Source: Rickettsiales bacterium
GTDB taxonomy: Bacteria; Pseudomonadota; Alphaproteobacteria; Rickettsiales; JABIRX01
DNA length: 64,000 bases
Direction of reading: 5' to 3'
NCBI GenBank assembly: GCA_965222515.1
Contig: CBDCUE010000021.1
Location: forward strand, 85,871 to 149,870
Part shown: in pieces, positions 11,601 to 60,400 of the stretch
Position numbering within the stretch: position 1 is the stretch's first letter
Layout: every line of letters begins with the position of its first letter
Position numbers and translations under genes: made by a program
Notes under the pieces: generated by a model
Seen by the model: the letters and a program-made list of their open reading frames with translations, nothing else
What the model was told of the DNA's origin: nothing
The model's database searches: none

Positions 11601-12532
11601 TGTTTTATAATCATTTTTAGTTCTTTATATATTTCTTGCCAAGACATTTCAATCTCTGGACATTTATTAATTATATTATTTATTGCATTATCATACAGAT
11701 CTATTTGGTATATTTTTTCTTCTTTCTTTTTTTCTAATTTAATTTTATTTTTTATAATTTTTATTAACCTCTTATCTTTTTTACCTTCAGCTAATTTTTG
11801 AGCTTTTAATTTTTTTATATATTCTAATTCAAAAATAGTTTCGTCTATATAAAAACCAAAATCCTCTTCTTTTAAGTCTACAATGCTACTTTCAGGAGTT
11901 GGAAAATTATAACATAACTGCCCTTCTATTCTCTGATTTACAAATGGTTTTAAAGTAGAAAAATATTTTAAATTTTCTAATGAAAAAATTTGATTAACTA
12001 AATCAATCATCAGAATTAATGTTATATGATTATTATAAGCACTCTCTTTATAAAGTTGTTCCACATTTCCTTTCTTTATAGTAAATACTTTTTTTGCTGA
12101 TGTTTTTAATTCAAGACAAAATTTTTTACCGTTATTTAAAGTAATAATAAAGTCTGGTTGAACTGATTTGATACCTTCTACAATAATTTTTTTTTCTTCA
12201 CCATTATAAATAAATTTGTGAGAGCTGTCTCCACCTAAAAGCTTTATATTACTAATATTCTTATTAAGTTTTAAATATTCCAAAAACAACTCTTCTATAA
12301 ACCAACCCCATATAATATTTCTTCCCCATTTTATTTCTCCTCTACCTAATGTTCCTCCTTTTATTTTAAATTCTAAACTTTCATATTTTACAAATTCTTC
12401 ATATATATTCTGAATATCATTTTTTACTTTTATAAAAATTTCTCTCTTTAATTTATAAATAAAGATTTTTTCATATAAATTAGCAATTTGTTGAAAATCC
12501 ATTTCATCTAACCTTGGTAACAATATATTCAT
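11597..12532 (-). CDS. putative type II restriction endonuclease (PD-(D/E)XK fold)
   Basis: Candidate catalytic motif VQPDFIITLNNGKKFCLELKTS (PD...E-L-K). ATGA overlaps with both the upstream C5-methyltransferase and downstream obg. No other family match recognisable by eye. Confidence 0.5.
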   Translation of the reverse strand: MNILLPRLDEMDFQQIANLYEKIFIYKLKREIFIKVKNDIQNIYEEFVKYESLEFKIKGGTLGRGEIKWGRNIIWGWFIEELFLEYLKLNKNISNIKLLGGDSSHKFIYNGEEKKIIVEGIKSVQPDFIITLNNGKKFCLELKTSAKKVFTIKKGNVEQLYKESAYNNHITLILMIDLVNQIFSLENLKYFSTLKPFVNQRIEGQLCYNFPTPESSIVDLKEEDFGFYIDETIFELEYIKKLKAQKLAEGKKDKRLIKIIKNKIKLEKKKEEKIYQIDLYDNAINNIINKCPEIEMSWQEIYKELKMIIKQ

Positions 12533-13560
12533 ACTAAGTTTTCTGTTAATTTTCTAATAAATTTTGGTGGTACACCTTCACCTATCACTTCTCTTATTAA
12601 ATTCTCTGTTGCCCATAAGGGAACATTCCAATCTTTTGGCAAAGAAGATAAAATAAAAATTTCAAGCAAAGTCAAGACTCTTGCATCAGAATATATTCCT
12701 ACCTCCTTCTTCCTACCTGGATGAACATTGTTTTGAGAAGATATAGCACCGTTACACATAGTGATGGTAGGAGATGGTTTATCCCACTCTATCCTTTTAT
12801 AGGTTGTACTATACCCTTTTATTTTTCTACCATCTTTTTGTGGAAAATATATTTCATTATCAAGAGCTGTATTTCCTGTTTTTGTATGTCTCATCCATAA
12901 AATATGATTATCATTATGTTTCTTTGCATAATGCCATTTTATTTCTGACTTTTCTTCACTTTCTAAGCTAGGTAAGTGAGATATTACCTCTCTTACTGTT
13001 ATATGTTCTGATTTTTTTGGAAATTCCCATTTTTTTTCCTTAGAAAGCAATATAATAACCCTTTTTCTTGTTTGAGGAACTTGATAATCAGCTGTATCTA
13101 ACACATCATAATTTATATAATATTCTGATAATTCTTTTTTTATATAATCTATAATTTTTATTTTTTGATTATTAACAATAATATATGTTTTAAGCATTGC
13201 AGGAACATTTTCTATCAAAAAATATTTGGGCTGTAATTTTTTGGCAAATTTCACTGCATAAACAATTAAATTATTTCTTGGATCATCTTCTTTCATTTTT
13301 CCAGCTACTGACATTCCTTGACAAGGTGGGGTAGCCATTAAAAAATGGCACTCTTCTCTTATTGCTTCATCTAAAAGAGATTGAAATAAAAAATTATCTA
13401 CAATAGATCCAATAAACATTTTAGTATTGGGGTACAAATCTTTATAAAACTTTCCTCTTTTCTCTATTAATTCATTTGCTAAAATAATATCTATATTATT
13501 ATCTTTCAAATATGTTTCTGCTACTCCAACATTAGCAAATAATGAAACTCCTTTTAACAT
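12529..13560 (-). CDS. DNA (cytosine-5)-methyltransferase
   Basis: Motif I LFANVGVAE, motif IV TPPCQGMS, motif VI LIENVPAM, motif VIII QTRKRVIIL, motif X GEGVPP. The track ORF extends to 13602, but the ATG at 13560 (MLKGVSLFANVG) avoids a 38-nt overlap with der. Confidence 0.9.
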   Translation of the reverse strand: MLKGVSLFANVGVAETYLKDNNIDIILANELIEKRGKFYKDLYPNTKMFIGSIVDNFLFQSLLDEAIREECHFLMATPPCQGMSVAGKMKEDDPRNNLIVYAVKFAKKLQPKYFLIENVPAMLKTYIIVNNQKIKIIDYIKKELSEYYINYDVLDTADYQVPQTRKRVIILLSKEKKWEFPKKSEHITVREVISHLPSLESEEKSEIKWHYAKKHNDNHILWMRHTKTGNTALDNEIYFPQKDGRKIKGYSTTYKRIEWDKPSPTITMCNGAISSQNNVHPGRKKEVGIYSDARVLTLLEIFILSSLPKDWNVPLWATENLIREVIGEGVPPKFIRKLTENLV

Positions 13561-13564
13561 AATT

Positions 13565-14944
13565 TTATTTCTTCTCCGTTTTAAACTCTCTTCCCTTAGC
13601 AAAAGGGTTTTTTTGTCTTTTGAAAATAAACCTTGGGATTACTCCTTTCAAGTGAAAAGATTCATTAATAGAATTTTTTAAATATCTAATGTAAGAGTCA
13701 GGTATTTTTTCTGGATAATTTGTCATTATTACAAAAGTCGGTGGTCTTGTGCTTATTTGAGTTATATATTTTAATTTTATATCTTTTCCTCTATATAATG
13801 GCAATCTATGTTCTCTATTGGTCCATTCCAGCCATTTATTTAACTCTCTCGTGTTAATTCTAACATTCCAATTTTCATAAACATCCAAGCTAGAATCTAT
13901 TACTGGCCAAATATTTTTTTTATTTTTAGCAGAAACTGTCCAGATTTTTAATTCTTTATTTTGTGGCACATATTTTCCAATTTGATATTCCACCTCCTCA
14001 ACAGCTTTTTTTAATTCATCCCTAGTCAATAAATCTGTTTTGTTAAGCACCACAATCAAGCCCCTACCCTCTCTAATAATTTCTGATGCTATATGAACAT
14101 CTTGTTTTTCTAATTTCTTTTGAGAAGCATCCAATAATAAAATACAAATTTGAGCAAATCTAATTGCCTTAAAAGAAGAAGCATAAGATAATTCTTCTAA
14201 TTTATGACTAATTTTACTTCTTTTTCTAATTCCTGCAGTATCTACCAAAGTAATATCTTTTCCTTTATATTTCCATTTAATTTCAATGGCATCTCTAGTA
14301 GTACCGCTTTGATCACAAGTAACCAATCTTTCATTATCTAAAAATGCATTAATTAAAGTAGATTTTCCAACATTAGGCTTTCCTACAATAGTTATTTTTA
14401 TACTCTTATCATCCTTACTGCTCTCTTCTAATTCCTGATAATCTTTTTGATATATTTGATAATATTTATCAATTTTCTCAAACAAAATTTCATATCCTAA
14501 TTTATGTTCTGCTGATAAAAACACCATATCTTTAAAACCTAATTTTTTTGCATTCTCTTCTGTTATATTTTTCTTTTTTACTTCTGCTTTATTTACTAAC
14601 AAAACAATATCTTTATTTTGCTTTCTTAAATATGAAATAAATTCTAAATCATCAAATAAAACACCACTTTTACTATCTATCACCAATAACAACAAATCAG
14701 CCTCTGCCACCGCATATGAAATTTGTCTTTCAATTCCTTTAGCCAGAATTTTCTCACTACTTTTCTCAAAACCAGCCGTATCAACCAATCTCATTTTCAT
14801 ATCCATAAATTCAACAACCTCCTCCTTTCTATCAATCGTAACACCAGCAATATCATAAGCCAAAGCAGATTTTTGCTTTACCAAAGAATTAAAAATAGTA
14901 GATTTTCCAACATTAGGCTTCCCAACAATAGCTAACGTAAACAT
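13565..14944 (-). CDS. der: ribosome-associated GTPase Der/EngA
   Basis: Two tandem G domains (GKPNVGKSTIFN and GKPNVGKSTLIN) plus a KH-like C-terminus. The likely start is the ATG at 14944 (MFTLAIVGKPNVGKS) rather than the track start at 15007. Confidence 0.9.
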   Translation of the reverse strand: MFTLAIVGKPNVGKSTIFNSLVKQKSALAYDIAGVTIDRKEEVVEFMDMKMRLVDTAGFEKSSEKILAKGIERQISYAVAEADLLLLVIDSKSGVLFDDLEFISYLRKQNKDIVLLVNKAEVKKKNITEENAKKLGFKDMVFLSAEHKLGYEILFEKIDKYYQIYQKDYQELEESSKDDKSIKITIVGKPNVGKSTLINAFLDNERLVTCDQSGTTRDAIEIKWKYKGKDITLVDTAGIRKRSKISHKLEELSYASSFKAIRFAQICILLLDASQKKLEKQDVHIASEIIREGRGLIVVLNKTDLLTRDELKKAVEEVEYQIGKYVPQNKELKIWTVSAKNKKNIWPVIDSSLDVYENWNVRINTRELNKWLEWTNREHRLPLYRGKDIKLKYITQISTRPPTFVIMTNYPEKIPDSYIRYLKNSINESFHLKGVIPRFIFKRQKNPFAKGREFKTEKK

Positions 14945-21072: not shown

Positions 21073-21558
21073 TTAAAAACCTTTTATAGTAAAAAATTTT
21101 CCAGTTAACTCAAATCCTTGATTTTCATAAAATTTATGAGCTCTTTTATTTTCGACATACACAACTAAAGTAATTCTTCTTATTTTGTGTTTTTTTGCAT
21201 ATGATTTTATATAATCAACAAATTGTTGCCCTAATCCCTTAGATCTATATTCTTTTTTTATAAAAAAATTATCTAATTCTAAATATGAACCACACCAAAA
21301 ACGATAATTTTTCCAAACACCTACATAACCAATAATATTTTCTTTTTCATCTAAACCAAGAAGAATCTGATAACCTAAAGATTTCATATAATCTATTTTT
21401 TCTAAAAAATTGCTGTAATCTATACCAAAAGAACAAAAATCCCAAAAATCTTTATTTTCTTGAACAACTAAATCAAAAAACTCTTTATAAAATCTTTTTT
21501 CTATTTTTTTTATTATCATTTTTTTTTGAAAAATAAACTGTGTTAATATAAAGTGCAA
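21073..21558 (-). CDS. GNAT-family N-acetyltransferase
   Basis: Acetyl-CoA motif A RSKGLGQQFV and C-terminal FYENQGF. The real start is possibly the ATG at 21519. Confidence 0.75.
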   Translation of the reverse strand: MHFILTQFIFQKKMIIKKIEKRFYKEFFDLVVQENKDFWDFCSFGIDYSNFLEKIDYMKSLGYQILLGLDEKENIIGYVGVWKNYRFWCGSYLELDNFFIKKEYRSKGLGQQFVDYIKSYAKKHKIRRITLVVYVENKRAHKFYENQGFELTGKFFTIKGF

Positions 21559-22095
21559 TTATAATAAACAGTGAGCTAATAATTTGTTGCATTGTCATTG
21601 TTTCATCCAATATTAGAAAACATAAAAATATTGTAACAACGGGACCTGTACTATTGAGCAAAGCAAATTTAGTAGCTCCTATTAATTTTATTCCTTCACT
21701 TATTAATAAAAGTGGTAAAAATTAGAAAATATAGACATAGTAATAATTATTAGCCAAGCTAAATTTGAAATAGTGTTTATTTGCTCGAATGAAGAGGTTA
21801 AGAAAAATGTATATTCATTAATATACAAGAAAAGCTAATTGCATATCCTCTAAATAATATACTGCCTATTTCTTTGCTAGTTTGTTGATTGATAATCAGG
21901 TAAATTGCATAACTAATTGCTGCAAAAAAAGCAAAGTAAATAAAAAACGAAAATATAGCAAATAAGCAACTGATATATTCTCACTATAAGCAAATTTAAC
22001 CAAAACTGATCTAACCGATAGTAATAATGTGGCAATTAATATGAGAATTATACCTTTAGAAGAATCTTTTGAGATACATCCAATAATTGTTAATT
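21545..22095 (-). pseudogene. decayed EamA/DMT-family transporter remnant
   Basis: Minus-strand translation of 21545-21720 gives an EamA-type C-terminus (...GATKFALLNSTGPVVTIFLCFLILDETMTMQQIISSLFIIIALYI). Upstream parts are broken by stops, and no ORF of 60 aa or more is present. Confidence 0.5.
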
Positions 22096-22100
22096 ATATT

Positions 22101-23001
22101 TTATTCTAACTCTGCTGCAATGTTGTATTTTTTATATTTTATCAAAGTTATTTTTACTCCCAAAATCATCAAAATACTACCAATAACCATTATTTGTGTA
22201 AGAGGTTCATTTAATATAAGTACTCCACTAAAAACTCCAAAAATAGGAACTAACAACATTAGAAATATAATTTTATTAATAATATAATTTGTAATTAAAT
22301 ATCCCCAAATACCATGAGCAATTATTGAAGCAAATATTGCTGTGTATAAAAGTGCTAACCAATGTTTAAAAGATGTATCTTTTAAAATTTGTAAATGATT
22401 ATCTTCAAAAATAATGGATAAGATGATTGTGATGAAAAATGAAAAGAATGAAATCCAAGTAACTAAAGCTAGTGCAGATTTTGAATTTATTTTTTTTAAC
22501 CAAATGCAATATAAACCCCAACAAAAGCCTGATAATATTATTAAAAAAAATGCTAGCTTATTATCAATTGAGTTTGGAGTCTGTGCCAGCAATATAGTTC
22601 CTATAATGGCAAGAATCATACCAATATATTTTAAAGCATTAGGTTTTTTCTTTAAAAAACAAAAAAGCAAGTAATATAGTAAACGGAACTCCTATTTGAG
22701 TTACTACAACTCCAATAGATGCACTAATTCCTATATAAAGAGCAAAATACATAAATCCTAAATGACCTAATCCAAAAAATAATGAGACTATTACAATTTG
22801 TTTTATAGGTATAGGTGGCTTAGGGTAAAATGGAAATAAAATAATAAAGGCTATAAAGAATCTTATAGATAAGGCAAGAAAAGGAGGAAAATTAGTTAAA
22901 GCAATTTTTGAGATTGTAAAATTAAATCCCCAAATACTTACAGAAATTAATGCCAACACTACAAGTAATATGGGATATTTTTTGATTAATGAGTTATTCA
23001 T
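22101..23001 (-). pseudogene. EamA/DMT-family transporter split by one frameshift
   Basis: The 120-aa N-terminal ORF (22639-23001) and 189-aa C-terminal ORF (22101-22670) together form one 10-TM EamA protein. The junction lies in an A/T homopolymer-rich stretch (...ttttttctttaaaaaacaaaaaagc...). Confidence 0.7.
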
Positions 23002-23306: not shown

Positions 23307-23369
23307 AAGATAAATTTTGTGTCAATATATTGGAATATTATAGATCTAGTCTATAAACCAATATATTAG

Positions 23370-24873
<1,504 letters not shown>

Positions 24874-25337: not shown

Positions 25338-26564
25338 GTGAAAAACACATTATATACAGGAGATAATCTATACATATTAAATGGAATGAATAGTGAGTCT
25401 GTTGATTTGATTTATTTAGACCCTCCTTTTAATTCAAAGAGATTTTATTCTGCTCCAGTCGGAACTAAAGCAGCAGGGACTAGTTTTAAAGATATGTGGA
25501 CTTGGCAAGATATAGATGAAGGATATTTAGAAAAAATGATTGTTAATTACCCTTTTATGACTAGTTATATTCAAGCAATAGAGGGTATAAGTGGTAAAGC
25601 TATGATGTCTTATGTAATATATATGACTCAAAGAATAATAGAATTACATAGAATATTAAAAGAAACGGGAAGTTTTTATTTACATTGTGATTCTACAGCT
25701 AGTCATTATTTAAAAATAATTTTAGATAGAATATTCGGTAAGGATAATTTTGTTAATAATATTAATTGGTGTTATAATACACAAGGAAAGCCAAAAAAAG
25801 GATTTGCTAAAAAACATGATGATATTTTATTTTATGTTAAAAACAAAAAATTATTTATATTTAATAAGATAACTATAGCACCAAATGACATTGCAAGATA
25901 TAACAAAACAGAAAAAGATACAGGTAAAAAATATCAAATAGATGGTAAGGGGTATAAGTATTATTTAGACAAGGGAAGATATTGTCCTGATTATTGGGAT
26001 ATACCAGCTTTAACTAGCAATAGCAAAGAAAGAACAGGATACCCAACTCAAAAACCATTGTCATTATTACATAGAATTATAAAAGCAAGTAGTAATGAAA
26101 GGGACGTTGTATTAGACCCTTTTTGTGGTTGTGCAACAACTTGTGTTGCTTCACAGCAATTAAATAGACAATGGATAGGGATTGATATTGAAAAAAAAGC
26201 AACAGAAATTTTAATTGATAGATTAAGCGATGATGCTGGTTTATTTAGTGATTTTATCCATAGAACAGATATACCAGAAAGAACTGATATAAAAAAAGAA
26301 GCTATAACCAAAACAATAAAAGAAAAGCTATTTAAAGAGCAAAAAGGAGTATGTAATGGTTGTAATGTTACAATTGATCTATGGCATTTTGAGGTTGACC
26401 ATATTATACCAAAATCAAAAGGAGGGGGAGATTATTATAATAATTATCAATTATTATGTGGTAATTGTAATAGAACAAAAGGTAATAGACCTATGGAGTA
26501 TCTTAATATGAAAATCAAAGCAAGAGATGAACTTATGAAAAACAAAATAACATTTGGAGGTTAA
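25338..26564 (+). CDS. beta-class (N6A/N4C) DNA methyltransferase fused to a C-terminal HNH endonuclease domain
   Basis: Motif IV IYLDPPFN lies N-terminal and motif I VLDPFCGCATT downstream, which is the beta-class order. The C-terminus has CNGCN...EVDHIIPKSKGG...NYQLLCGNCNRTKGN (CxxC...H-N...CxxC HNH zinc-finger nuclease). GTG start. Confidence 0.85.
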   Translation: MKNTLYTGDNLYILNGMNSESVDLIYLDPPFNSKRFYSAPVGTKAAGTSFKDMWTWQDIDEGYLEKMIVNYPFMTSYIQAIEGISGKAMMSYVIYMTQRIIELHRILKETGSFYLHCDSTASHYLKIILDRIFGKDNFVNNINWCYNTQGKPKKGFAKKHDDILFYVKNKKLFIFNKITIAPNDIARYNKTEKDTGKKYQIDGKGYKYYLDKGRYCPDYWDIPALTSNSKERTGYPTQKPLSLLHRIIKASSNERDVVLDPFCGCATTCVASQQLNRQWIGIDIEKKATEILIDRLSDDAGLFSDFIHRTDIPERTDIKKEAITKTIKEKLFKEQKGVCNGCNVTIDLWHFEVDHIIPKSKGGGDYYNNYQLLCGNCNRTKGNRPMEYLNMKIKARDELMKNKITFGG

Positions 26565-33202: not shown

Positions 33203-35296
33203 ATGACTTTAAACAAAACACAAGAACAAGCCGTCCAGCATAAGCAAGGAGCTTTACTAATTCTAGCAGGAGCAGGAACTGGAAAAACTAGAGTATTGAC
33301 TCATAGAATTGCAAAATTGATTGAAGATCAAGATGCTTATGCTTCTCAAATTCTAGCAGTTACCTTTACTAATAAGGCCTCAAAAGAGATGAAAAGCAGA
33401 ATATTTGATTTATTGGGATATGAGTCCCCTGAGATGTTCACAGGAACTTTTCATTCTATTTCGGCTAGAATTTTTAGAAAACACTCAAATTATCTTGGTT
33501 TTTCTAATGATTTTAACATTGTCAATCAAGATGATGCCCTTAGATTAGTAAAAAGAATTTTGACTGAAAACAAAATTACAGACAAAATAAATTATAAAGC
33601 AATTTTGCATAAAATATCTTTTTGGAAAGATAAAAACATCTTACCTAGTCAAGATTATCTACTAACTGACAAAAATGATTTTTATGATGTTAGCTAATTA
33701 TGTTTATGCAACCTATCAAGAAGAATTAAAAGCCTCAAACTCTTTAGATTTTGGTGATTTAATTCTCTACACCATAAAATTATTAAAAGAAAACAAAGAT
33801 TTGCAAGAATATTACAGCAAAAAATTTAAATATATTTTAGTAGATGAATATCAGGATATTAACACAGCTCAATATTTATGGTTAAAATTGTTTTGCTTAA
33901 ATCATAGTAATATTTGTTGTGTTGGAGATGATGATCAATCAATCTATTCCTTTCGTGGAGCTGAAGTAGAAAACATATTAAGATTTGAACAAGATTTTCC
34001 TAAAGCAACAATAATTAAATTAGAAGAAAATTATCGCTCTACCCAACATATTCTAAACACCGCAAATCATCTTATCTCACACAATAAAAACAGGCATAAA
34101 AAAAGCCTTTTTACCTCTCAAAATCAGGGTAGAAAAGTGCAAATCAGATCAAATTTTGATGATAACAAAGAAGCATATAACATTTGTAAAGAAATCAAAA
34201 ATCTATCAGGCTCTTTGAAAGAGGTAGCTATTTTAGTAAGAGCATCTCATCAAACTAGAACAATTGAAGAGAATTTAATAAATTCAGCCATTCCTTATCA
34301 AGTAATAGGTGGAATGAAGTTTTATGATCGTAAAGAAATTAGAGACATTATTTCTTATTTAAGAATAATTCATTCTAAAAATGATATTTTAGCATTTGAA
34401 AGAATAATTAACATTCCTAAAAGAGGAATTGGATCAGTTGCTTTTAGCAAAATAAACAATTTAACAAAAACAGAGAACATCTCTTTTTTAACTGCCATAA
34501 AAACTGCCATAGTAAATAATGTTGTTAACAAAACCACTGCTCAACATTTAGATAAATTTGTCAAATTATTAGCAAATACCAAAGCTCATTTAGTTACTCA
34601 TTCCCTAGAGGAGGCTTGTAAATATTTAATAGAAAATTCTGGTTATCAAGAAATGCTTAAAACTAGCAAAGAAAGTAATGCAGAATCTAGATTAGAAAAT
34701 TTACAAGAATTTATCAGGGCAATTGGTGAATTTGATGATTTAACCAGCTTTTTAGATTATGTTAGTTTGATTAATGAAACTCAAAATAATGATAATATTG
34801 ATAAAGTTAATATCTTAACCCTACATTCTGCTAAAGGCTTAGAATTTGACAATGTATTTTTAACAGGTTGGGAAGAAGGTTTATTTCCTAATCAAAGGGC
34901 ATTGGATGAGCAGGGAGAAAATGGCCTTGAAGAAGAAAGAAGGCTTGCTTATGTAGGAATTACTCGTGCAAAACAAAATTTATATATTTCATATACAGAA
35001 AATAGAAGATTATATAATAAATGGCAATCAAGAGCTCCCTCTATGTTTTTAAAAGAATTACCTAGTGAAACTACAAAAATAATAGAGTATAAAAAAACTA
35101 GTCATTTTAATTATTATTATCAAAAACCAAAAAAAAGATACTTCTAGCAAGGTAAATAATTTTAGTTCAGGAAAAACAATAGAGCATAAAAATTTTGGCA
35201 TAGGTACTATAAAATCTTCAATCGGAGATGTGTTAGAAGTCCAGTTTGATTTCAGGAAAAACAAGATATGTAACTGCAAATAGTTTAGTAAAATAG
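33203..35296 (+). pseudogene. uvrD: UvrD/PcrA-type DNA helicase II with at least three frameshifts
   Basis: Walker A AGAGTGKTRVLTHRIA, VDEYQDINTAQ, and motif VI VGITRAK. The frame changes near 33690 (gatgtt-a-gctaat), in the A8 run at about 35130, and at about 35252. The C-terminal Tudor-like tail (GKTIEHKNFGIGTI...VQFDF / GKTRYVTANSLVK*) is readable only in other frames. Confidence 0.8.
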
Positions 35297-35331
35297 TGAT
35301 TTTAAATTTCTGTTAGTAAATAAAGACCTAC

Positions 35332-35360
35332 TTGACAAAGTCCTTTAAAAATGATACAAT
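35332..35360 (+). promoter_or_regulatory. near-consensus sigma-70 promoter
   Basis: TTGACA (35332-35337), exactly 17 nt of spacer, then TACAAT (35355-35360). It lies about 170 nt upstream of the frameshifted ORF starting at 35532. Confidence 0.35.
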
Positions 35361-35531
35361 AGCATTATTAACAAGTTATAAATTTGAATTTAACTTAAGA
35401 ATTACAAGAATATACAAGCTAAAAATAATTTTGAGTATTTGTTTTTTCTTACCTTAAATGATCTTAATTATTATGTTTAATATAAATTTAGGATCTTAAA
35501 TTATAATAAAATTTAATATGGTATAAGCATT

Positions 35532-35833
35532 ATGGCAACAAAAGAAAAAAAAATATCCCCCTTTACATAAAAGTAGGGATTTTCTCATTACCTATTGCTA
35601 CATTCCTCCTTTCTTTCTTTGTACTATCTCTTCCTATTATCACTACAATACCTGTTGTTTCAGGAGTTGCAATAGCAACCCTAGCTCTTTCTTGGGCTTA
35701 TGAAAATAATTATTTTCCTGATGTATGTATCCTACAAAAACAGAAGGTAAAGAAAACAGAAAAAACAATAGGAGCAACAGAAGCAGGAGTAGCAGGAGCT
35801 CCAACAGGTACAACAAAATGTTACAAACAATAA
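35532..35833 (+). pseudogene. small two-TM membrane protein gene interrupted at an A9 tract
   Basis: ATG...GAAAAAAAAAT: frame 0 stops after 12 codons. The other forward frame then reads about 95 codons (VGIFSLPIATFLLSFFVLSLPIITTIPVVSGVAIATLALSWAYENNYF...) and would join the ATG if the A run were 10 instead of 9. Confidence 0.3.
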
Positions 35834-36375
35834 CAGCAACAGAAGACCCAACAAAAACACAAATGTTAATGAAGAACTACAAAACATCTAAATGATGTTA
35901 CAGCTGAACTAAATAATTGTAAAAAATGTGCAAGATACTATGAATATAATAACCTAAAGAATCAAATACCGTCTATAATATACAATACCTTAATAACAGA
36001 GAAAATAAATACATTTTGCGAACGAGTGCAATAAAAAAACAAACGATCAAAGAACAGAGATAGAGCAATCAGTACTAGAAGCAAAGGCAAAAAAAACTTT
36101 TAAACAATATATTAGAGCAGACACAAGAGAAAGGATCTCTTTTCATAGATGAATTAATACATAAGCATCCAACTTTAATACAAGGACTAGTTATTCAAAA
36201 AAGTAATATAGATAAAATAAACTTAATTCACCATGCTATCATTAACCCCTCCACTCAACAACAAACAGCCACAGCTGACCAAAACAACAAGAATAAAGAT
36301 GGAAAATAAAATCCATTGATAAATAAATTTAATCACTATATAAAAATAATAGCATCAACTATTTAATCAAATAAT

Positions 36376-37663
36376 ATGAAAGAAAGAATTGCTATTTGTC
36401 TAGGTTATAGACTCCTATGGGAAAAATGGGAGGAAATTTATCAAAAATATCTGCAGATGTTTTGGGGAGCTTTATTACTAGAGAAGTTTTTAGTAAATAT
36501 CAAGATTACAGCTCAGAATTAGATGAAGTTATATGTCGGAAATGTATCTCAAACCTGCTGATTCTGCCAATATTGCAAGAGTTATTGCTTTGAGAGCAGG
36601 TATTGATCAAAAATCCCAGCCTATACAGTTCATAAGAAATTGTGCTTCTGGGATGGAAGCTGTAACTTCTGGAGTCTGCAAAATTTTATCAGGAAAATCA
36701 GAGGTTATTTTAGCAGCTGGAGTGGAATCTATGAGCAATCTTCCTTTTTTATTTTCTAATCAAAGCCAAAGATTTTTTGAAAGTCTAGCTTATAGCAGAA
36801 CTATTTCTCAAAAACTAAGAAATCTACTAAAATTCAAATTTAATTTTATAGCTCCAGTAATTGCCTTAAAATGTGGCTTAACAGATCCAATTTGTAATAT
36901 GATTATGGGAGATACGGCAGAATTGCTTGCTAAAGAATTTAATATCACTAGAGAAGAACAGGATAAATTTGCTTGTTTAAGTCATAATAGAGCAGAAAAA
37001 AGCTACTAAGAAAGGAATTTTTGGCAGAAGAATTATTCCATATCCTGTAAAAAACAAAATGATAGAAACAGATCAGGGCATTAGAAATGGTCAAAATAAT
37101 ATGGCTTTGGCTAAATTAAAACCATTTTTTGATCGAAAAAACGGCACAGTAACAGCAGGTAATTTCATCACAAATCACAGATGCTGCAGGAGCCTTAATT
37201 ATGATGGAGAAGAAAAAAAGCAAAAATCATTAGGTTTGAAACCTTTAGGATATGTTAAAGATTTTTGTTATATGGGTTTAGAAGGTGAAAGAATGGGCTT
37301 GGGACCTGCTTATACCATTGCTAATTTATTATTAAAACATAAAAAAATCTATCAAAAGATATAGATTTATTTGAAATTAACGAGGCTTTTGCTAGTCAAA
37401 CAATTGCTTGCACCAAAGCTCTAAATAGTGCAGAATTTTGCAAAAATAAATTAGGCTTAAAAGCTAAATTAGGCTTAATTCCAAGTAGCAAACTAAATGT
37501 CAATGGTGGAGCAATATCATTAGGTCATCCAGTTGGAATGAGTGGTATTAGATTAATTATCACTTTACTTAGAGAATTAAAAAGACAAAATAAACAAACA
37601 GGAATAGCATCTTTATGTGTAGGAGGAGGACAAGGAGGAGCTTGTTTATTGGAGGTAAATTAA
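36376..37663 (+). pseudogene. acetyl-CoA acetyltransferase (thiolase) with multiple frameshifts
   Basis: Thiolase blocks are scattered over three frames: NCASGMEAVTSG (active-site Cys), GVESMSN, NGTVTAGN, EINEAFASQ, NVNGGAISLGHPVGMSG, and the C-terminal CVGGGQGGACLLEV. The track shows only the 158-aa and 101-aa pieces. Confidence 0.8.
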
Positions 37664-37822
37664 TACTATATCAGTTATTAATTGACCTTATAGCCAAAAA
37701 AGATGTTTAGTAGAAATTGTTTTTTTAATAATCTGTTAGCCATAGCTAACAGATTATTAAAAAAAACAATTTATGCTGAGCAGATTGAAAGCTATAGGTC
37801 AATTATAAAAACTAAAATAGTA
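37664..37822. repeat. approx. 160-bp palindromic MITE-like element, copy 2
   Basis: Collinear with 20900-21063 (...attgaccttatagccaaaaaagatgtttagtagaaattg...gctataggtcaattataaaaactaaaatagta). It begins directly after the thiolase stop codon. Confidence 0.8.
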
Positions 37823-37953
37823 TTAGAAAGCAACTCCACAAAATATCATCCCTACGAAAGCAGGAAGTAAACACAAATTGTAATCTTATTAGGACTTTGC
37901 TTCACTTTTTGCTATGCAAAGTGAAGCCCCCACCAAAACTATTATATAGTTTT

Positions 37954-38060
37954 AGCTCCCCCTCAAGGGGGGGAGCTATTACCATGAGCCTTTTTTTCTA
38001 TTCTTTCATAATTAGAATTATCTGACAAGAGGGGCGGTAGCTCCTAGCTTTCTTTAAATT
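37954..38060. repeat. cluster of GC-rich hairpin repeats (composite repeat copy B)
   Basis: agctccccctcaagggggggagct hairpin (37954-37977), then ttcataattagaattatctgacaagaggggcggtagctcctagctttctttaaattt, related to 23125-23172 and 26831-26880. Confidence 0.6.
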
Positions 38061-38191
38061 TAAAATTACATAACCACACCAGCCCTTGCTTCGGTGAGGA
38101 ATCTCGTTGTCAAGAGGACAATAACTGCTGATAAAACCCCGCTTACAATATTACTTCTACTACAAATCAGTATATCTATCAATATTGATTT

Positions 38192-38742
38192 TCTAACCTA
38201 TCTCTCTATCAACTTGATCGTAAGTTAAATTTACTGGAGTTTCTCTTCCAAAAATAGATACAGATACAACTAAAGTTCTCTTGTCTGAATCACAAGATTC
38301 TATAATACCAGTAAAATTATTAAAAGCTCCTCCAATCTATAATTTTTACATTCTCTCCAACACTTCATATTCTGTATTATCAACCATATCAAAACTTTCA
38401 TCTTCTAATCTTACCTATAATGTCTTCTGCTTCTTTTTCTTTTTAATGGTATAGGTTTTCCTGAGTTGAGAAATAAACCCTGATACTTTTGGAATAGATT
38501 TTAATTAAATGCCATAATTCATTAGTTAAATCCATATTCACCATTACATAACCTGGAAAAAGTTTCTTTTCTACTTGAATTTTCTTACCTTTTTTAATTT
38601 CTTGAACTTTTTTTGATGGAACAATTATATCTTTTATTAAATCAGACATTTTCAGCTCTTTCAGCTCTTTGAATAAAATAGACTTTTCTACAGAATATTC
38701 ACAATTTGAATAAGCTTGCACAATATACCACTTGGTTGACAT
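38192..38742 (-). pseudogene. nusG: transcription antiterminator NusG, heavily frameshifted
   Basis: The NGN domain is intact for about 80 aa (MSTKWYIVQAYSNCEYSVEK...FPGYVMVNMDL). The downstream pieces IPKVSGFISQ, GKPIPLK, GENVKIID and GGAFNNFTGIIESCDSDKRTLVVSVSIFGRETPVNLTYDQVDRE lie in different frames, implying at least five frame changes and internal stops. Confidence 0.75.
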
Positions 38743-38779
38743 TTATTTTTTAATATTAATTCATTAATTATTTTTTAAT

Positions 38780-38962
38780 TTATCCTAAAATTTTGGAAAT
38801 TAAACTAGACCATAATAAATCTACTGCTAAAAAAAATATAGAAAAAAATACCGACTATCATAAAAACTGAGAAAGCCGTATTAATTAATTCTTTTTTTAT
38901 TTATCCAAGTAACTTTAGAAACTTCTTTTTTTACATCAGTAAAGAAAATTTATTATTTTCAT
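38780..38962 (-). pseudogene. secE: preprotein translocase subunit SecE, frameshifted
   Basis: The SecE-like sequence FFTDVKKEVSKVTWINKK / ELINTAFSVFMIVGIFFYIFF / LAVDLLWSSLISKILG* is readable only by shifting frame three times (0 to 1 to 2 to 0), two of them at A7/T7 runs. The frame of the ATG has five internal stops. Confidence 0.55.
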
Positions 38963-38981
38963 TATTTTTTTTATTATTAAT

Positions 38982-39057
38982 TGGCAGGAGCGAGAGGAAT
39001 TGAACCCCCAACCTACGGTTTTGGAGACCGGCGCTCTACCAATTGAGCTACACTCCT
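38982..39057 (-). tRNA. tRNA-Trp (anticodon CCA)
   Basis: AGGAGTGTAGCTCAATTGGTAGAGCGCCGGTCTCCAAAACCGTAGGTTGGGGGTTCAATTCCTCTCGCTCCTGCCA. Cloverleaf with anticodon loop CTCCAAA. 3' CCA encoded. Confidence 0.95.
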
Positions 39058-39067
39058 AAATTTTCTA

Positions 39068-40246
39068 CTATTCTATAATTTTAACAACAACTCCAGAACC
39101 TACAGTTTTGCCTCCTTCTCTAACCGCAAATCTCATTCCTTTAGTCATCGCTACTGGATTAATTAATTCTACTGTTAAAGTTACATTATCTCCAGGCATT
39201 ACCATTTCTGTTCCTGAAGGCAAATCAACACTTCCTGTTACATCTGTTGTTCTAACATAAAATTGTGGGCGATAATTATTAAAAAATGCTGTATGTCTTC
39301 CTCCCTCTTCTTTAGTCAAAACATATAATTGCGCTTCAAACTTTTTATGTGGAGTTATAGTCTTCGGCTTTGCCAATACTTGACCTCTTTGCACATCTTC
39401 TTTTTTTGTTCCTCTAAGAAGCACACCTACATTATCTCCTGCTTGACCTTGATCTAACAGCTTTCTGAACATCTCTACTCCTGTACAAATTGTTTTTTGA
39501 GTGTCTTTTAATCCTACGATTTCTATTTCTTCTCCAACTTTTACAATTCCTGTATCAATTCTACCAGTAACTACTGTTCCTCTTCCTGAGATAGAAAATA
39601 CATCTTCTATTGACATCAAAAAATCTCCTTCTATTGCTCTTTTAGGTTCTGGAATATCTACATCCAAAGCTTTCATTAAAACATCTATTGATCCTTTCCC
39701 TAAATCAGTTTCTTTTCCTTCTAAGGCAGCTAAGGCACTTCCTCTTATTATTGTAATATTATCACCATCAAACTCATATTTAGATAATAACTCTCTTAAT
39801 TCTATTTCTACCAACTCCAACAATTCTTCATCATCTACTTGGTCGCATTTATTCAAATATACCACTAAATTTTTTACACCTACTTGTCTTGCAAGCAAAA
39901 TATGTTCTCTAGTTTGAGGCATAGGCCCGTCTGATGCTGAACATACCAAAACTCCTCCATCCATTTGAGCTGCTCCTGTTATCATATTTTTTACATAATC
40001 AGCATGTCCAGGACAATCTACATGGGCATAATGTCTTGCTTCTGTTTCATATTCAACATGGGCTGTTTGAATGGTTATTCCTCTTGCTCTTTCTTCTGGA
40101 GCTTTGTCAATTTCATCATATCCTAATTTAGATGTTCCATAATATTTTAATATTGCTGCTGTCAAAGTTGTTTTTCCATGATCTACATGCCCTATTGTTC
40201 CTACATTTATATGTGGTTTATTTCTTTGAAAAGTTTCTTTACTCAT
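39068..40246 (-). CDS. tuf: translation elongation factor Tu
   Basis: [18 protein letters not shown] and NKCD motifs. 392 aa, intact. Confidence 0.98.
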
Positions 40247-40361
40247 TTTATTTTTTATATAAAGTTATTTTATTCTCCTTTTAACTATTTCTTTTTTGAA
40301 CTAGTTAAACATTTCAGCAGATTTAAATTTTGCAGATACAAACTTTGCAAACTTTAAATTT

Positions 40362-40435
40362 TGGAGCGGGTGAAGGGGATCGAACCCTCACCACTAGCTT
40401 GGAAGGCTAGAGCTCTACCATTGAGCTACACCCGC
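40362..40435 (-). tRNA. tRNA-Gly (anticodon UCC)
   Basis: GCGGGTGTAGCTCAATGGTAGAGCTCTAGCCTTCCAAGCTAGTGGTGAGGGTTCGATCCCCTTCACCCGCTCCA. Anticodon loop CTTCCAA. Confidence 0.95.
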
Positions 40436-40493
40436 AATAAACACCAAAATATCTCAGTATTACCTCGCGAAAAGCCCTCTTTTCCAAAAAAAA

Positions 40494-40579
40494 TGGTAGA
40501 GGGGACAGGATTCGAACCTGTGTACGTATACACGGGCAGATTTACAGTCTGCTGCCTTTAACCACTCGGCCACCCCTCC
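40494..40579 (-). tRNA. tRNA-Tyr (anticodon GUA), long variable arm
   Basis: GGAGGGGTGGCCGAGTGGTTAAAGGCAGCAGACTGTAAATCTGCCCGTGTATACGTACACAGGTTCGAATCCTGTCCCCTCTACCA. Confidence 0.95.
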
Positions 40580-41193: not shown

Positions 41194-41374
41194 TTATGTC
41201 TCAATGCCCCGTTTCAATGTTTTTTTTATTTGACAAAGCTTCATTTTTTGTATAAGTTTAAGACTCCTTGCATAATCGTATATCGTTCTTTTATTTTTTG
41301 TGAGTGTAAAATCTTCAAAAGCGGAACATACTTAATAGTATGTGAGCATTTTTAAAATTTTATCTCACAACTCT

Positions 41375-57482: not shown

Positions 57483-60400
57483 ATGTTTTTCAATAATTAT
57501 GGTACAAATTTTGCCGAATATATTAATTCATCTAACAAAAATAACTCAACTACCGAGATTGCTTTTTTTTCCGATAATGAAGATCATATAGAAGAGACTT
57601 TTGTCTCTTTTATCCAAGTTTTGGAAAAAGATATAGAACAAAGAATAGAAATATCAAGTTTAGTAGCAACAGAAGAACAACAACCTAGTATTTCTCAAAA
57701 ATACATAAATTCACTAGAACAGCAAAACACACAACAAGAACAGCTTGCATCTCAAAATAATGAAGTAATATTAAATCATCAAGATAAAATAATAGAAGTT
57801 ACAAATACACCAGAAACACTAAGCTTTAATACATTTAGTGTTACTCAAAAAACACTGGGAGAAATACAGGAGATACAAGGCATATCTGAGCAATTTAAAA
57901 AAGCACAAGAAAAGAATTTTGATATTATTAATATTGAAATAAAAGCTCCTGCTCAAAAAATTGCCATACCATTTAAATCTGAAACAGAAAAACTACAAGA
58001 AATACAAATAGAGCAAAAAAAACAAGAGAAAAAACTACAAACAGAGCAACAAGCAGAGCAAGAAGCAGAGCAAGAAGAACAAGAGCAACCAACAGATCAG
58101 CAAGCAGAAACAAACCATCAACCAGAAATAGTAAAACCAAATATTTATCTTAGTGTAGATGGAAAAAATGGAACTTTTGATATTGCAAATATTACAACAA
58201 ATTTTGCACATATTATTGATGGAATAACATTCTCTATTGAAGCTAATCAAGATAATTATCTTGAAGATAGCACTGAAAACTTAACAAATCTAAGTAACAA
58301 CTTTTTATATAACAAAGATAATGTTTCATATATTGATTACATCTCTAATATAGATAGCTATGTTTCATTTAATACAACTTTTTCTGCTGTTTCTGTTGTT
58401 TCTGGTTTGGTTGCTAATATCACAGAAGGGCAAACTACAGTTTCAAGCATAGTAAGCAATCTTACAAATGTTGGTTTTGTTGGAGATAGCGGAACAGGTA
58501 GTGCTAATTATGGAACTTATTCTGTGTCAGAAATTGGTTTTTGGATATATATTCCAGATATAATAAAATTTGATAGCTTAGCAGAAGGAGAGATGGTTCA
58601 AGACAGCTTCTCTGTCACTACTAGCGATGGAAAGACAGAAACCATAACTATTAATTTAATTGGAGTAAATGATCCAGCAATTATTACTGGGGATAATAGC
58701 GGTAGTTTAATAGAAGATGACTCAGTTACTACCTCTGTTTTTGGAAATTTATCCGTTAATGATGTTGATACAAATCAAAGTAGATTTAATGTTCTTACCG
58801 ATGAGACCTCTACTTATGGAACATTTTCTATTACAGAAGATGGAGCTTGGCAATATCAATTAGATAATAATAAATCACAATCTTTAAATGTATCAGGTAT
58901 TACGACAGAAGAGATTAAGGTAACTTCTGTTGATGGCACAGAACATTTAATTACTATTTTTTTATCTGGTGTCAATGATGTTGCAACTATCACTGGCTTT
59001 AATGATAAAACTATTAGTTTAAATGATAATATAATAAAAATTGCTAATGATGTTGTTATAGAAGATGTTGATGATGCTAATTTGAATAATGTTACTATTC
59101 AAATCACTAATTATAATAATACAGAAGATTTATTCTATTTTGAAGATCAAGTAATAACATTAACAAATAATGAAACTAGTTTAGAAAACACAGGATTTAA
59201 CTATATAGCCACAGAAGACTCATCCACTCAATTAACCATAACGATAACAGGAGATAAAACAATAGCAGAATATCAATCATTAGTAAGTAGCTTTTCTTAT
59301 AATAAGAGTAATACAACAAATCCAGACACAACTACTAAAAACATTACAATAACTGTTGATCAAGGGATTGCTAATGAAGCTCAAATTGTAGCAAATCTAA
59401 TTATTACAGCTTTAACAACAAGTGAAAATACGACAAGCAATCCAGCTGATGATACCACAACTTTATTTACTGCTCAAGAGCCAGAAATAGATTCAATCAG
59501 TAAAACATATGAAATCACCTCTGTAATGGATAAACAAGAAAATGATGTAGTAGGATTATTTGAAATAGATGCTAACACTGGAGAAGTAAGTCTAGTTACA
59601 GGACAAAATTTTGATTATGAAACTGCTCAAAGATATGATATAACTATCAATGTAAAAGATCAAAATGGCAATATATTACAAACACAAAATTATGTTTTTA
59701 ATATAACTGATTTAGATGATGGAAACTTTGCATTTATTGAAACAAATTATCTTGAAAGTAATAGTGCTAACATAATCTCTGCTTATAATTTTGAAAATTC
59801 TGTTACTGGAGGGATAAGTAATAATTTAGTGGATGATATAGCTCACAAAAGTTCTGATGTTAACGAAAAAGATGGGACAATTGGAACAGGAGCAAATTCT
59901 GGAGTAACTGCAACAGATAATTCAAAAGGAAATTTTTTGTCATTAGATGGCACAAATACTGCAAACTTATCTTTAGGAAATATTACTTTAAGCAATGAAT
60001 TTTCTTTATCAGGTTGGTTTAAGTTTAATCAAGATGACACTAACTCTAATGAATATTTATTTTCTGCAACAACTGAAAATGGAGGGAGTTTTTCTATATA
60101 TAGAACAGCTAATGATCATAGTATTATATTTTTATATAGAGAAAGCCATTCTAACAATGCTACTGATGATTATATAATCATTAATAATATAATAGACACA
60201 AGTGCAACAACAAATGAATTTGATCATTACAGCTTTACTATGAAAAGCATTATTAAAGATGATAGAGATGCAATCAATGTATCAGCCTATGTAAATGGTA
60301 TATTAAACATGTCAGAAATAGTATTTTCAGCTGGAGGAAATTTAACTTTAGCAGGTGATTATAGCAATGCAGAAATTGGTAATGTCCTTGATGGCGGAGT

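What the first reader, a model, noticed from the sequence alone, without database searches (positions are those of the whole stretch)
38192..40579. Normally essential secE and nusG are broken directly downstream of an intact tuf in the canonical tRNA-tuf-tRNA-Trp-secE-nusG arrangement
The cluster tRNA-Tyr, tRNA-Gly, tuf, tRNA-Trp, secE, nusG matches the widely conserved bacterial 'tufB' layout. Here, however, secE is readable only by three successive +1 shifts, two of them at A7/T7 runs. nusG keeps an intact NGN domain for about 80 codons and then fragments, with its KOW-domain pieces in other frames. The expected continuation (rplK-rplA...) is replaced by repeats and a dead thiolase. I see three possible explanations. 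This may be a decaying second copy of a duplicated tuf region, with functional secE/nusG elsewhere. The organism may have lost NusG/SecE, which would be remarkable. Or expression may be rescued by slippage. The secE shifts sum to exactly one codon, so the ATG and the stop codon are in the same frame, which is curious.
Basis: partly seen in the sequence, partly recalled or inferred. Interest (0 to 1): 0.65.

Follow-up and report, generated by a model that had tools for sequence, protein, structure and literature searches.

The report
Frameshift patch across secE and nusG
The secE and nusG genes really are frameshifted in this sequence, but the breaks belong to a 3.9-kb patch of tiny insertions that crosses five unrelated genes and leaves every repaired protein looking fully functional, so this is most likely a local sequencing or assembly error and not the loss of two essential genes.

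Summary
On the minus strand the order is tRNA-Tyr, tRNA-Gly, intact tuf, tRNA-Trp, then secE with three +1 insertions and nusG with a 99-codon open NGN part followed by five +1 insertions and one +2 insertion. rplK is absent.

- **The frameshifts follow position, not genes.** About 24 small indels (about 7 per kb, at least 85% insertions, about 60% outside long homopolymers) fill window 35,130-38,945. They cross the 3' end of uvrD/pcrA, an unknown ORF, a thiolase, nusG and secE on both strands. They stop just before tRNA-Trp.
- **The rest of the window is clean.** Its 41.8 kb of intact ORFs contain 154 A/T runs of 7 or more.
- **The repaired genes look functional.** No repaired reading path has a nonsense codon. 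Repaired NusG, SecE, thiolase and PcrA score like functional orthologues.
- **This is the ancestral locus.** It matches the tuf-tRNATrp-secE-nusG site of related Rickettsiales-like MAGs.
- **No second copy was found.** Protein searches found no second NusG, SecE or Tuf from this genome.

Best reading (about 0.55): a locally low-quality consensus stretch, with both genes probably intact in the organism. The rivals are a young redundant duplicate (0.17), a chimeric assembly (0.07), true loss (0.07) and recoding (0.03). Read mapping or PCR resequencing of 35.0-39.1 kb would decide.

The parts
40494..40579 (-). tRNA-Tyr (GTA)
   Evidence: ARAGORN and Rfam. It sits in the same position as in relatives L002, L085 and L086.
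40362..40435 (-). tRNA-Gly (TCC)
39068..40246 (-). tuf, intact, 392 aa
   Evidence: One ORF. It scores 716 bits as EF-Tu and is 89% identical to Tuf of the closest relative R1.
38982..39057 (-). tRNA-Trp (CCA), intact
   Evidence: It aligns without any indel to the tRNA-Trp of four relatives. It marks the right edge of the indel patch.
38780..38962 (-). secE, readable only with three +1 skips (about 38944, 38892, 38843)
   Evidence: Three-frame reading and shortest-path repair. The repaired 59-aa product scores 47.3 bits to TIGR00964 (cutoff 27.55; orthologues score 50-61). It is 51-66% identical to SecE of relatives.
38193..38742 (-). nusG, with six insertions (38499, 38465, 38440, 38409 at +1; 38360 at +2; 38334 at +1)
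   Evidence: The repaired 180-aa product scores 194.6 bits to TIGR00922 (cutoff 135.7; intact orthologues score 189-199).
38443..38742 (-). Open 99-codon ORF, the NGN domain of nusG plus an out-of-frame tail
   Evidence: 89.2 bits, model positions 1-84 of 172. It is present in the protein collection as the singleton P0036.
37664..38192 (.). Spacer between the convergent thiolase and nusG. It holds a hairpin at 37704-37782 (arms differ by T7 versus A8) and G+C-rich hairpins at 37900-38110.
   Evidence: No Rfam family and no rplK remnant were found.
36376..37663 (+). Thiolase with 7-8 small indels (36412 at -1; 36534, 36553, 37001, 37164 at +1; 37219/37225; 37347)
   Evidence: The repaired product scores 412 bits to TIGR01930 over its full length, and the Cys/His/Cys motifs are present.
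35532..36308 (+). Unknown membrane-protein ORF chain that needs about 5 frame changes
   Evidence: Three-frame reading only. No Pfam family matched, so these lesion positions are inferred.
33203..35295 (+). uvrD/pcrA helicase. It has one shift at about 33690, then two more at about 35135 (an A8 run) and 35253.
   Evidence: The repaired product aligns as one stretch, residues 2-681, to model positions 4-707 of 725 of TIGR01073, scoring 763 bits.
35130..38945 (.). Position-defined patch of about 24 small indels (about 7 per kb, at least 85% insertions) that crosses five genes on both strands
   Evidence: Lesion list. The flanks are clean.

Best explanation
The secE and nusG breaks are part of one stretch of about 3.9 kb (window about 35,130-38,945) in which the deposited consensus carries roughly one extra base per 140 bp. 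The most likely cause is locally poor sequence. Examples are a stretch covered by one or very few long reads of modest accuracy, an unpolished gap fill, or a contig-end join next to tuf. Gene decay is less likely.

On this reading the organism has a single, intact secE and nusG at the ancestral site downstream of tuf and tRNA-Trp. Only the loss of the nusG-rplK linkage is a real rearrangement.

What is shown: the position-bound distribution of lesions, the insertion bias, the absence of nonsense codons, undiminished family scores after repair, and orthology of the locus. What is inferred: that the cause is technical. No reads were available to check.
For: - **Lesions follow position, not genes.** The 3' 170 bp of uvrD has 2 shifts while its first 1.9 kb has 1. 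My own binomial estimate gives p of about 0.02 for 3 lesions spread uniformly. The patch then runs through an unknown ORF, the thiolase, nusG and secE on both strands. It stops 37 bp before an indel-free tRNA-Trp.
- **Insertions dominate.** Of 17 well-supported lesions in thiolase, nusG and secE, 15-16 are insertions. About 60% of 20 lesion sites are not in runs of 5 or more.
- **No nonsense codons.** None occurs in 665 repaired codons. The expected number is 3 at 3 substitutions per indel (P0 = 0.05) and 5 at 5 substitutions per indel (P0 = 0.007).
- **Repaired proteins are as good as functional ones.** NusG scores 194.6 bits against 189-199 for intact orthologues. SecE scores 47.3 against 50-61. 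The thiolase scores 412 bits over its full length with its catalytic motifs. PcrA scores 763 bits in one stretch.
- **The rest of the window is clean.** It holds 41.8 kb of long ORFs with 154 A/T runs of 7 or more, a 4-kb LRR gene and a giant ORF of more than 6.4 kb.
- **The locus is the ancestral one.** Relatives L001, L002, L005 and L009 all have tuf-tRNATrp-secE-nusG.
- **No other copy was found.** The collections hold this contig's own gene calls, yet contain no NusG above 59% identity, no SecE and no second Tuf from this genome.
Against: - No reads, coverage or quality values were available, so the technical cause is inferred.
- The assembly is otherwise very clean, so a special local circumstance is needed.
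- Repaired NusG and SecE are more diverged from the closest relative than Tuf would predict. NusG is 58% identical against about 75% expected. NusG also has 10 unique changes at otherwise invariant columns, against 5 for the next longest branch. This could mean relaxed constraint.
- Synteny with rplK is truly broken.
- The genome does hold other frameshifted genes outside the patch: EamA at about 22,650, a decayed EamA remnant at 21,480-22,100, and uvrD at about 33,690. Real erosion therefore does occur here.
- The rest of the genome could not be inspected. The genome scan was swamped and the source assembly is not indexed.
Confidence: 0.55

Rival explanations
1. The pseudogenes are real but very young, and exist because the segment is redundant. 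Functional secE-nusG, probably still joined to rplKAJL-rpoBC, lies elsewhere in the genome. The duplication could have arisen by recombination between two tuf copies. This copy is being eroded by an indel-rich mutation spectrum.
For: - rplKAJL-rpoBC is missing after nusG although all four relatives have it there.
- The closest relative R1 carries two identical tuf genes whose downstream regions have been exchanged (L001 and L085). Recombination at tuf therefore happens in this clade.
- NusG and SecE are somewhat accelerated.
- Real pseudogenes exist in the window.
Against: - No NusG above 59% identity and no SecE from this genome appear among called proteins, although the 99-aa fragment is there.
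- No second Tuf was found.
- Both edges of the patch lie in native context. uvrD reads straight across the left edge, and secE abuts tRNA-Trp as in the relatives. It is therefore not an inserted extra copy.
- The 5' 1.9 kb of uvrD is almost clean although it belongs to the same broken gene.
- There are no nonsense codons and no loss of family score.
Confidence: 0.17
2. True loss in progress. The single-copy secE, nusG, thiolase and uvrD were all inactivated very recently, and the bacterium lives without SecE and full-length NusG. It may keep an NGN-only NusG fragment.
For: - No other copy was detected.
- The NGN ORF of 99 codons is open.
- The genome shows other gene erosion.
Against: - The window encodes proteins that depend on Sec: periplasmic Cu/Zn SOD, AsmA-like, PpiD-like, ComEC, MscS and giant surface proteins.
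- SecE is needed for SecY stability in studied bacteria (established knowledge, from memory).
- Nine frameshifts with no substitution-level damage is not what neutral decay gives.
- The lesion pattern ignores gene borders.
Confidence: 0.07
3. The genes are broken in DNA but are expressed through transcriptional slippage or ribosomal +1 frameshifting. This resembles the poly(A)-tract frameshifts of Blochmannia and Buchnera.
For: - Two of the three secE sites are A7 and T7 runs.
- The repaired proteins look under constraint.
- In Blochmannia, single indels in long poly(A) tracts are thought to be corrected, with about 30% full-length transcripts (PMC3017870).
Against: - The known cases have one indel per gene in tracts of 9 or more.
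- Here secE needs 3 corrections and nusG needs 6. At least one secE site and four or five nusG sites are not homopolymers.
- Even at 30% per site, the secE yield would be below 3% and the nusG yield below 0.1% (my arithmetic).
- About 35 other genes in the window need no correction.
Confidence: 0.03
4. The assembly is chimeric. The patch comes from a second, diverged and dead copy of this region, for example a copy integrated in the host genome or a co-occurring strain, and was merged into the symbiont contig.
For: The patch has sharp, gene-independent borders. NusG and SecE are somewhat more diverged than expected.
Against: A dead copy should also carry nonsense and missense damage, and none is visible. 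No direct evidence supports this reading.
Confidence: 0.07

Closest known systems
Canonical tufB-type cluster (tRNAs-tufB-tRNATrp-secE-nusG-rplKAJL-rpoBC), as in E. coli and in relative L002
   Same: The order tRNA-Tyr, tRNA-Gly, tuf, tRNA-Trp, secE, nusG and the orientation are identical to L002.
   Different: rplKAJL-rpoBC does not follow nusG. secE and nusG are frameshifted in the deposited sequence.
Exchanged tuf contexts in Rickettsia (fus-secE-nusG and tuf-S10; recalled from Syvanen et al. 1996, not checked here) and in relative R1 of this clade
   Same: R1 has fusA-tuf-tRNATrp-secE-nusG-rplK (L001) and tRNATyr-tRNAGly-tuf-rpsJ (L085), with 100% identical Tuf. This shows that the tuf genes are recombination points in this lineage.
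   Different: The window keeps the unexchanged, ancestral arrangement on both sides of tuf. Only one tuf product is known for this genome.
Frameshifts in poly(A)/poly(T) tracts of endosymbiont genes, corrected by transcriptional slippage (Blochmannia, Buchnera; PMC3017870)
   Same: The genome is AT-rich, some shifts lie in A/T runs, and the genes are otherwise undamaged.
   Different: There are many shifts per gene, most runs are shorter than 9, and most sites are not runs. The shifts are clustered by position across five genes.
Local clusters of indel errors in long-read or hybrid assemblies, in low-depth or unpolished stretches (general knowledge, not tested here)
   Same: Errors are almost all indels and are biased to insertions. 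The patch has sharp borders that ignore genes, and the flanks are clean.
   Different: The sequencing platform, depth and polishing history of this record are unknown to me.

Membership tests
SecE (TIGR00964 secE_bact) | The protein scores above the curated cutoff over the whole model. | tested here: met
   The repaired 59-aa product scores 47.3 bits against a cutoff of 27.55, covering model positions 1-56 of 57.
SecE (TIGR00964 secE_bact) | An uninterrupted reading frame in the DNA as given. | tested here: not met
   Three +1 skips are needed, at about 38944, 38892 and 38843.
NusG (TIGR00922) | NGN and KOW domains in one protein that scores above the cutoff. | tested here: met
   The repaired 180-aa product scores 194.6 bits against a cutoff of 135.7, covering model positions 1-171 of 172. 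This equals intact orthologues, which score 189-199.
NusG (TIGR00922) | An uninterrupted reading frame in the DNA as given. | tested here: not met
   Only the 99-codon NGN ORF is open (89.2 bits, below the cutoff). Six insertions follow it.
tufB-type gene cluster | The order tRNAs-tuf-tRNATrp-secE-nusG. | tested here: met
   with the same order in L002, L005 and L009.
tufB-type gene cluster | Continuation into rplKAJL-rpoBC. | tested here: not met
   tblastn with L11, L1, L10, L7/L12 and RpoB of relatives finds nothing in the window.
Decaying pseudogene (neutral erosion) | Frame-disrupting lesions. | tested here: met
   There are 9 lesions in secE and nusG.
Decaying pseudogene (neutral erosion) | Accompanying nonsense or missense damage and a falling family score. 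| tested here: not met
   There are 0 nonsense codons in 665 repaired codons. Family scores equal those of the orthologues.
Decaying pseudogene (neutral erosion) | Lesions bounded by the gene that lost function. | tested here: not met
   The patch starts inside uvrD and spans five genes.
Decaying pseudogene (neutral erosion) | A functional paralogue elsewhere, for a redundant copy. | tested here: inconclusive
   None appears in the protein collections. However, the rest of the genome could not be read.
Slippage-rescued frameshift gene (Blochmannia/Buchnera type) | A single indel inside a long (9 or more) A/T tract of an otherwise intact gene. | tested here: not met
   There are 3 and 6 lesions per gene, the longest tracts are 7-8, and many sites are not tracts. 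The criterion is taken from PMC3017870.
Local assembly or consensus error | Low depth or low quality at the site, with the extra bases not supported by reads. | not testable with these tools
   No reads or quality values are available.

The most novel reading that the evidence does not exclude
The insertions are real and secE and nusG are single-copy. A Rickettsiales-like bacterium with a normal envelope would then either live without SecE and full-length NusG, or make them from genes that need three and six frame corrections each. The second case would imply an unknown, efficient correction mechanism that acts on a defined chromosomal patch.
Probability: 0.08. Interest if true: 0.85.

Novelty: not a real feature. 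Interest (0 to 1): 0.2.

Why it matters
If the frameshifts were real, a bacterium lacking SecE and NusG, or correcting nine frameshifts during expression, would be remarkable. The evidence instead points to a local error patch. The practical value is therefore a caution. Annotating these genes as pseudogenes would wrongly suggest loss of essential functions in an uncultured Rickettsiales-like lineage. A cluster of frameshifts that ignores gene borders, is biased to insertions and leaves repaired proteins pristine is a usable signature for telling such artefacts from true erosion.

Tried and rejected
- **Looking up the source contig.** I searched by exact protein (tuf and the NusG fragment), and neither is on record. 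The cluster look-ups gave no names and only "NCBI+ENA, contig 191,773 bp".
- **The single genome-contig scan.** I ran it with a NusG subfamily alignment. The patterns (WY[VI]VQAYS and similar) were too general.
- **SecE protein search.** Only one candidate was retrieved and there was no hit. This is informative only against a near-identical copy.
- **An alternative genetic code.** Rejected, because TGA ends 9 of 35 long ORFs.
- **General homopolymer miscalling.** Rejected, because 154 runs of 7 or more lie in intact ORFs.
- **An ORF-free 57.5-64 kb region as further decay.** Rejected. It is one giant open ORF that runs off the window end.
- **An RNA gene in the nusG-thiolase spacer.** Only spurious miRNA-like hairpin hits were found.
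- **A gradient of lesion density toward tuf.** The trend is weak, at 5.8 versus 9.2 per kb in my own split, so I do not rely on it.
- **Literature searches for a reported secE/nusG pseudogene pair or for the organism.** Nothing relevant was found.
Full report
**What is in the sequence**

The window has about 27% G+C. It carries an unlinked 16S rRNA gene and RNase P RNA and mostly intact housekeeping genes.

On the minus strand, ARAGORN and Rfam find tRNA-Tyr (40494-40579), tRNA-Gly (40362-40435) and tRNA-Trp (38982-39057). Between them lies an intact 392-aa tuf at 39068-40246, which scores 716 bits as EF-Tu.

Downstream of tRNA-Trp, secE begins at ATG 38962 and ends at TAA 38782-38780. It can be read only with three +1 skips, at about 38944 (a C inside TTTT-C-TTT), 38892 (A7) and 38843 (T7).

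nusG begins at ATG 38742. A 99-codon ORF (38443-38742) covers the NGN domain. The rest needs skips at 38499, 38465, 38440 and 38409 (+1 each), 38360 (+2, a GT duplication) and 38334 (+1). It ends at TAG 38195-38193.

No remnant of rplK, rplA, rplJ, rplL or rpoB is present in the window. After nusG come about 530 bp with hairpins and a convergent, frameshifted thiolase.

**Evolutionary context**

The best NusG homologues (57-59% identity) come from Rickettsiales-like metagenome contigs. In all of them the order is tuf-tRNATrp-secE-nusG-rplKAJL-rpoBC (L001, L002, L005, L009).

L002 also has tRNA-Tyr and tRNA-Gly upstream of tuf, exactly as in the window. The window locus is therefore the ancestral, orthologous secE-nusG site and not an odd extra copy.

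The closest relative by Tuf (89%) I call R1. It has two 100% identical tuf genes with exchanged downstream regions: fusA-tuf-tRNATrp-secE-nusG-rplK in L001 and tRNATyr-tRNAGly-tuf-rpsJ in L085. Recombination at tuf thus occurs in the clade. That keeps a duplication scenario conceivable.

**Search for a second copy**

The window's own gene calls are present in the protein collection as singletons from one 191,773-bp contig (NCBI and ENA). They include the 99-aa NusG fragment P0036 and Tuf. Against that collection:
- The repaired NusG finds nothing closer than 59% identity.
- An exhaustive HMMER search with the NGN ORF finds nothing closer than 56% identity.
- The repaired SecE finds no candidate at all.
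- Tuf finds no second copy. The next best hit is 89% identical and belongs to R1.

The source genome itself could not be read. Exact look-ups returned "not on record", and the one genome scan was swamped by unrelated alphaproteobacteria. Absence of a second copy is therefore suggested but not proven.

**The key finding: the frameshifts are bound to position, not to genes**

Reading outward from secE and nusG, I found more lesions:
- The thiolase (36376-37663) needs 7-8 small corrections.
- An unknown membrane-protein ORF chain (35532-36308) needs about five. This is inferred from three-frame reading alone, because no family matched it.
- The last 170 bp of uvrD/pcrA needs two, at about 35135 and 35253. 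Its first 1.9 kb has only one, at about 33690.
- A hairpin in the spacer has arms of T7 versus A8.

Together, about 24 small indels lie between about 35,130 and 38,945, or about 7 per kb. They cross five consecutive genes on both strands and end 37 bp before a tRNA-Trp that has no indel relative to four relatives.

Outside this patch:
- 41.8 kb of long ORFs hold 154 A/T runs of 7 or more without a break.
- A 4-kb LRR gene is intact, and so is a giant ORF of more than 6.4 kb.
- TGA is a normal stop codon.

If uvrD were simply a dead gene decaying at the patch rate, its 1.4 kb between 33.7 and 35.1 kb should carry about ten lesions. It carries none.

**Nature of the lesions**

Of the 17 well-supported lesions in thiolase, nusG and secE, 15-16 are insertions (+1 or +2) and one or two are -1. 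Only about 40% of 20 sites lie in runs of 5 or more.

No nonsense codon lies on any repaired path. With a 5.9% chance that a random substitution creates a stop, 17 indels accompanied by 3, 5 or 10 substitutions each would predict 3, 5 or 10 nonsense codons. The corresponding probabilities of seeing none are 0.05, 0.007 and 0.00005.

After repair the proteins are as good as functional ones:
- NusG scores 194.6 bits to TIGR00922, against 189-199 for intact orthologues.
- SecE scores 47.3 bits, against 50-61 for orthologues.
- The thiolase scores 412 bits over its full length with its Cys/His/Cys motifs.
- PcrA scores 763 bits as one continuous alignment.

From general knowledge, bacterial pseudogene decay is usually biased towards deletions and brings nonsense and missense damage. 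This patch shows neither.

**Interpretation**

The best explanation, at about 0.55, is a local stretch of poor consensus in the deposited assembly. Possible causes are very low depth of long reads, an unpolished gap fill, or a join at the tuf repeat. On this reading secE and nusG are intact in the organism, single-copy, and at their ancestral place. Only the separation of nusG from rplK is a real rearrangement.

This reading accounts for four things:
- the essential nature of the genes;
- the missing second copy;
- the pristine repaired proteins;
- the insertion bias and the gene-independent borders.

Several points count against it:
- I could not see reads.
- The assembly is otherwise clean.
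- Repaired NusG and SecE are more diverged from R1 than Tuf would suggest (58% against about 75% expected).
- NusG has 10 unique changes at otherwise invariant columns, against 5 for P0001.
- The genome does contain other eroded genes, namely the EamA transporters at 21.5-23.0 kb.

**Rivals**

- **A young redundant duplicate with functional genes elsewhere (0.17).** This fits the lost rplK linkage and the tuf recombination seen in R1. It does not fit the native context at both patch borders, the clean 5' part of uvrD, or the failure to find another copy.
- **A chimeric assembly containing a dead copy (0.07).** This fits the sharp borders. It predicts substitution damage that is not seen.
- **True loss (0.07).** This conflicts with the many Sec-dependent proteins encoded nearby and with the lack of decay.
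- **Slippage or recoding (0.03).** The known cases are single indels in tracts of 9 or more, with about 30% corrected transcripts (PMC3017870). Here three and six corrections are needed, mostly at sites that are not slippery.

That follows simply from three +1 events.

**Verdict**

The biological interpretation is probably wrong, and the feature is most likely not real. Interest is low (0.2) unless read-level data verify the insertions. In that case it would become a striking instance of essential-gene loss or multi-site frame correction.

Noticed in passing
window 57500-64000 (+): One giant open reading frame of more than 2,100 aa runs off the window end. It has repeated cadherin/VCBS-like modules. 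The ORF listing does not list it because it is open-ended. The relative L001 also has giant cadherin-domain proteins with HlyC acyltransferases next to its str operon.
   Followed up: partly
window 41437-45453 (+): A 1,338-aa leucine-rich-repeat protein with 69-bp tandem units (41649-41993). It resembles type III effector LRR domains (XopL, XopAE, XopAC) and sits directly upstream of the tRNA-Tyr/tuf cluster. Relatives have hisBHA at that position instead.
   Followed up: partly
window 22101-23001 (-) and 21480-22100 (-): There are two EamA/DMT transporter genes. The first is split by one +1 shift at an A7 run (about 22,650). The second is a multi-frame remnant with at least one stop. These are frameshifted genes outside the 35.1-38.9 kb patch.
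   Followed up: partly
window 33690 (+): An isolated +1 frameshift in uvrD/pcrA lies 1.4 kb outside the dense patch and is not at a homopolymer. It may be a real lesion or a sporadic error.
   Followed up: partly
L001 8365-9594 and L085 10001-11179: The closest relative (ENA ERZ26695902, two contigs at about 4x depth) has two 100% identical tuf genes with exchanged downstream contexts: fusA-tuf-tRNATrp-secE-nusG and tRNATyr-tRNAGly-tuf-rpsJ. This resembles the Rickettsia rearrangement, but both tuf copies are retained.
   Followed up: yes
window 23369-24872 (-): The 16S rRNA gene stands alone with no adjacent 23S or 5S, as in Rickettsiales. It is flanked by EamA remnants and by a DNA methylase-HNH gene (25338-26564).
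   Followed up: no
window 37900-38110: Short segments richer in G+C, with hairpins (for example AGCTCCCCCTCAAGGGGGGGAGCT), lie in the nusG-thiolase spacer. No Rfam family matched and their function is unknown.
   Followed up: partly
window 41374-41423: A 25+25 nt palindrome, 96% complementary with no loop, lies just upstream of the LRR gene start.
   Followed up: no
window 38963-38981: The spacer between tRNA-Trp and the secE start codon is only about 19 nt. In the four relatives it is about 60-85 nt.
   Followed up: no
window 12529-13602 (-) and 11597-12532 (-): A C-5 cytosine DNA methylase is followed by an ORF with no family match. This may be a restriction-modification pair, lying between the GTPase genes der and obg.
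   Followed up: no
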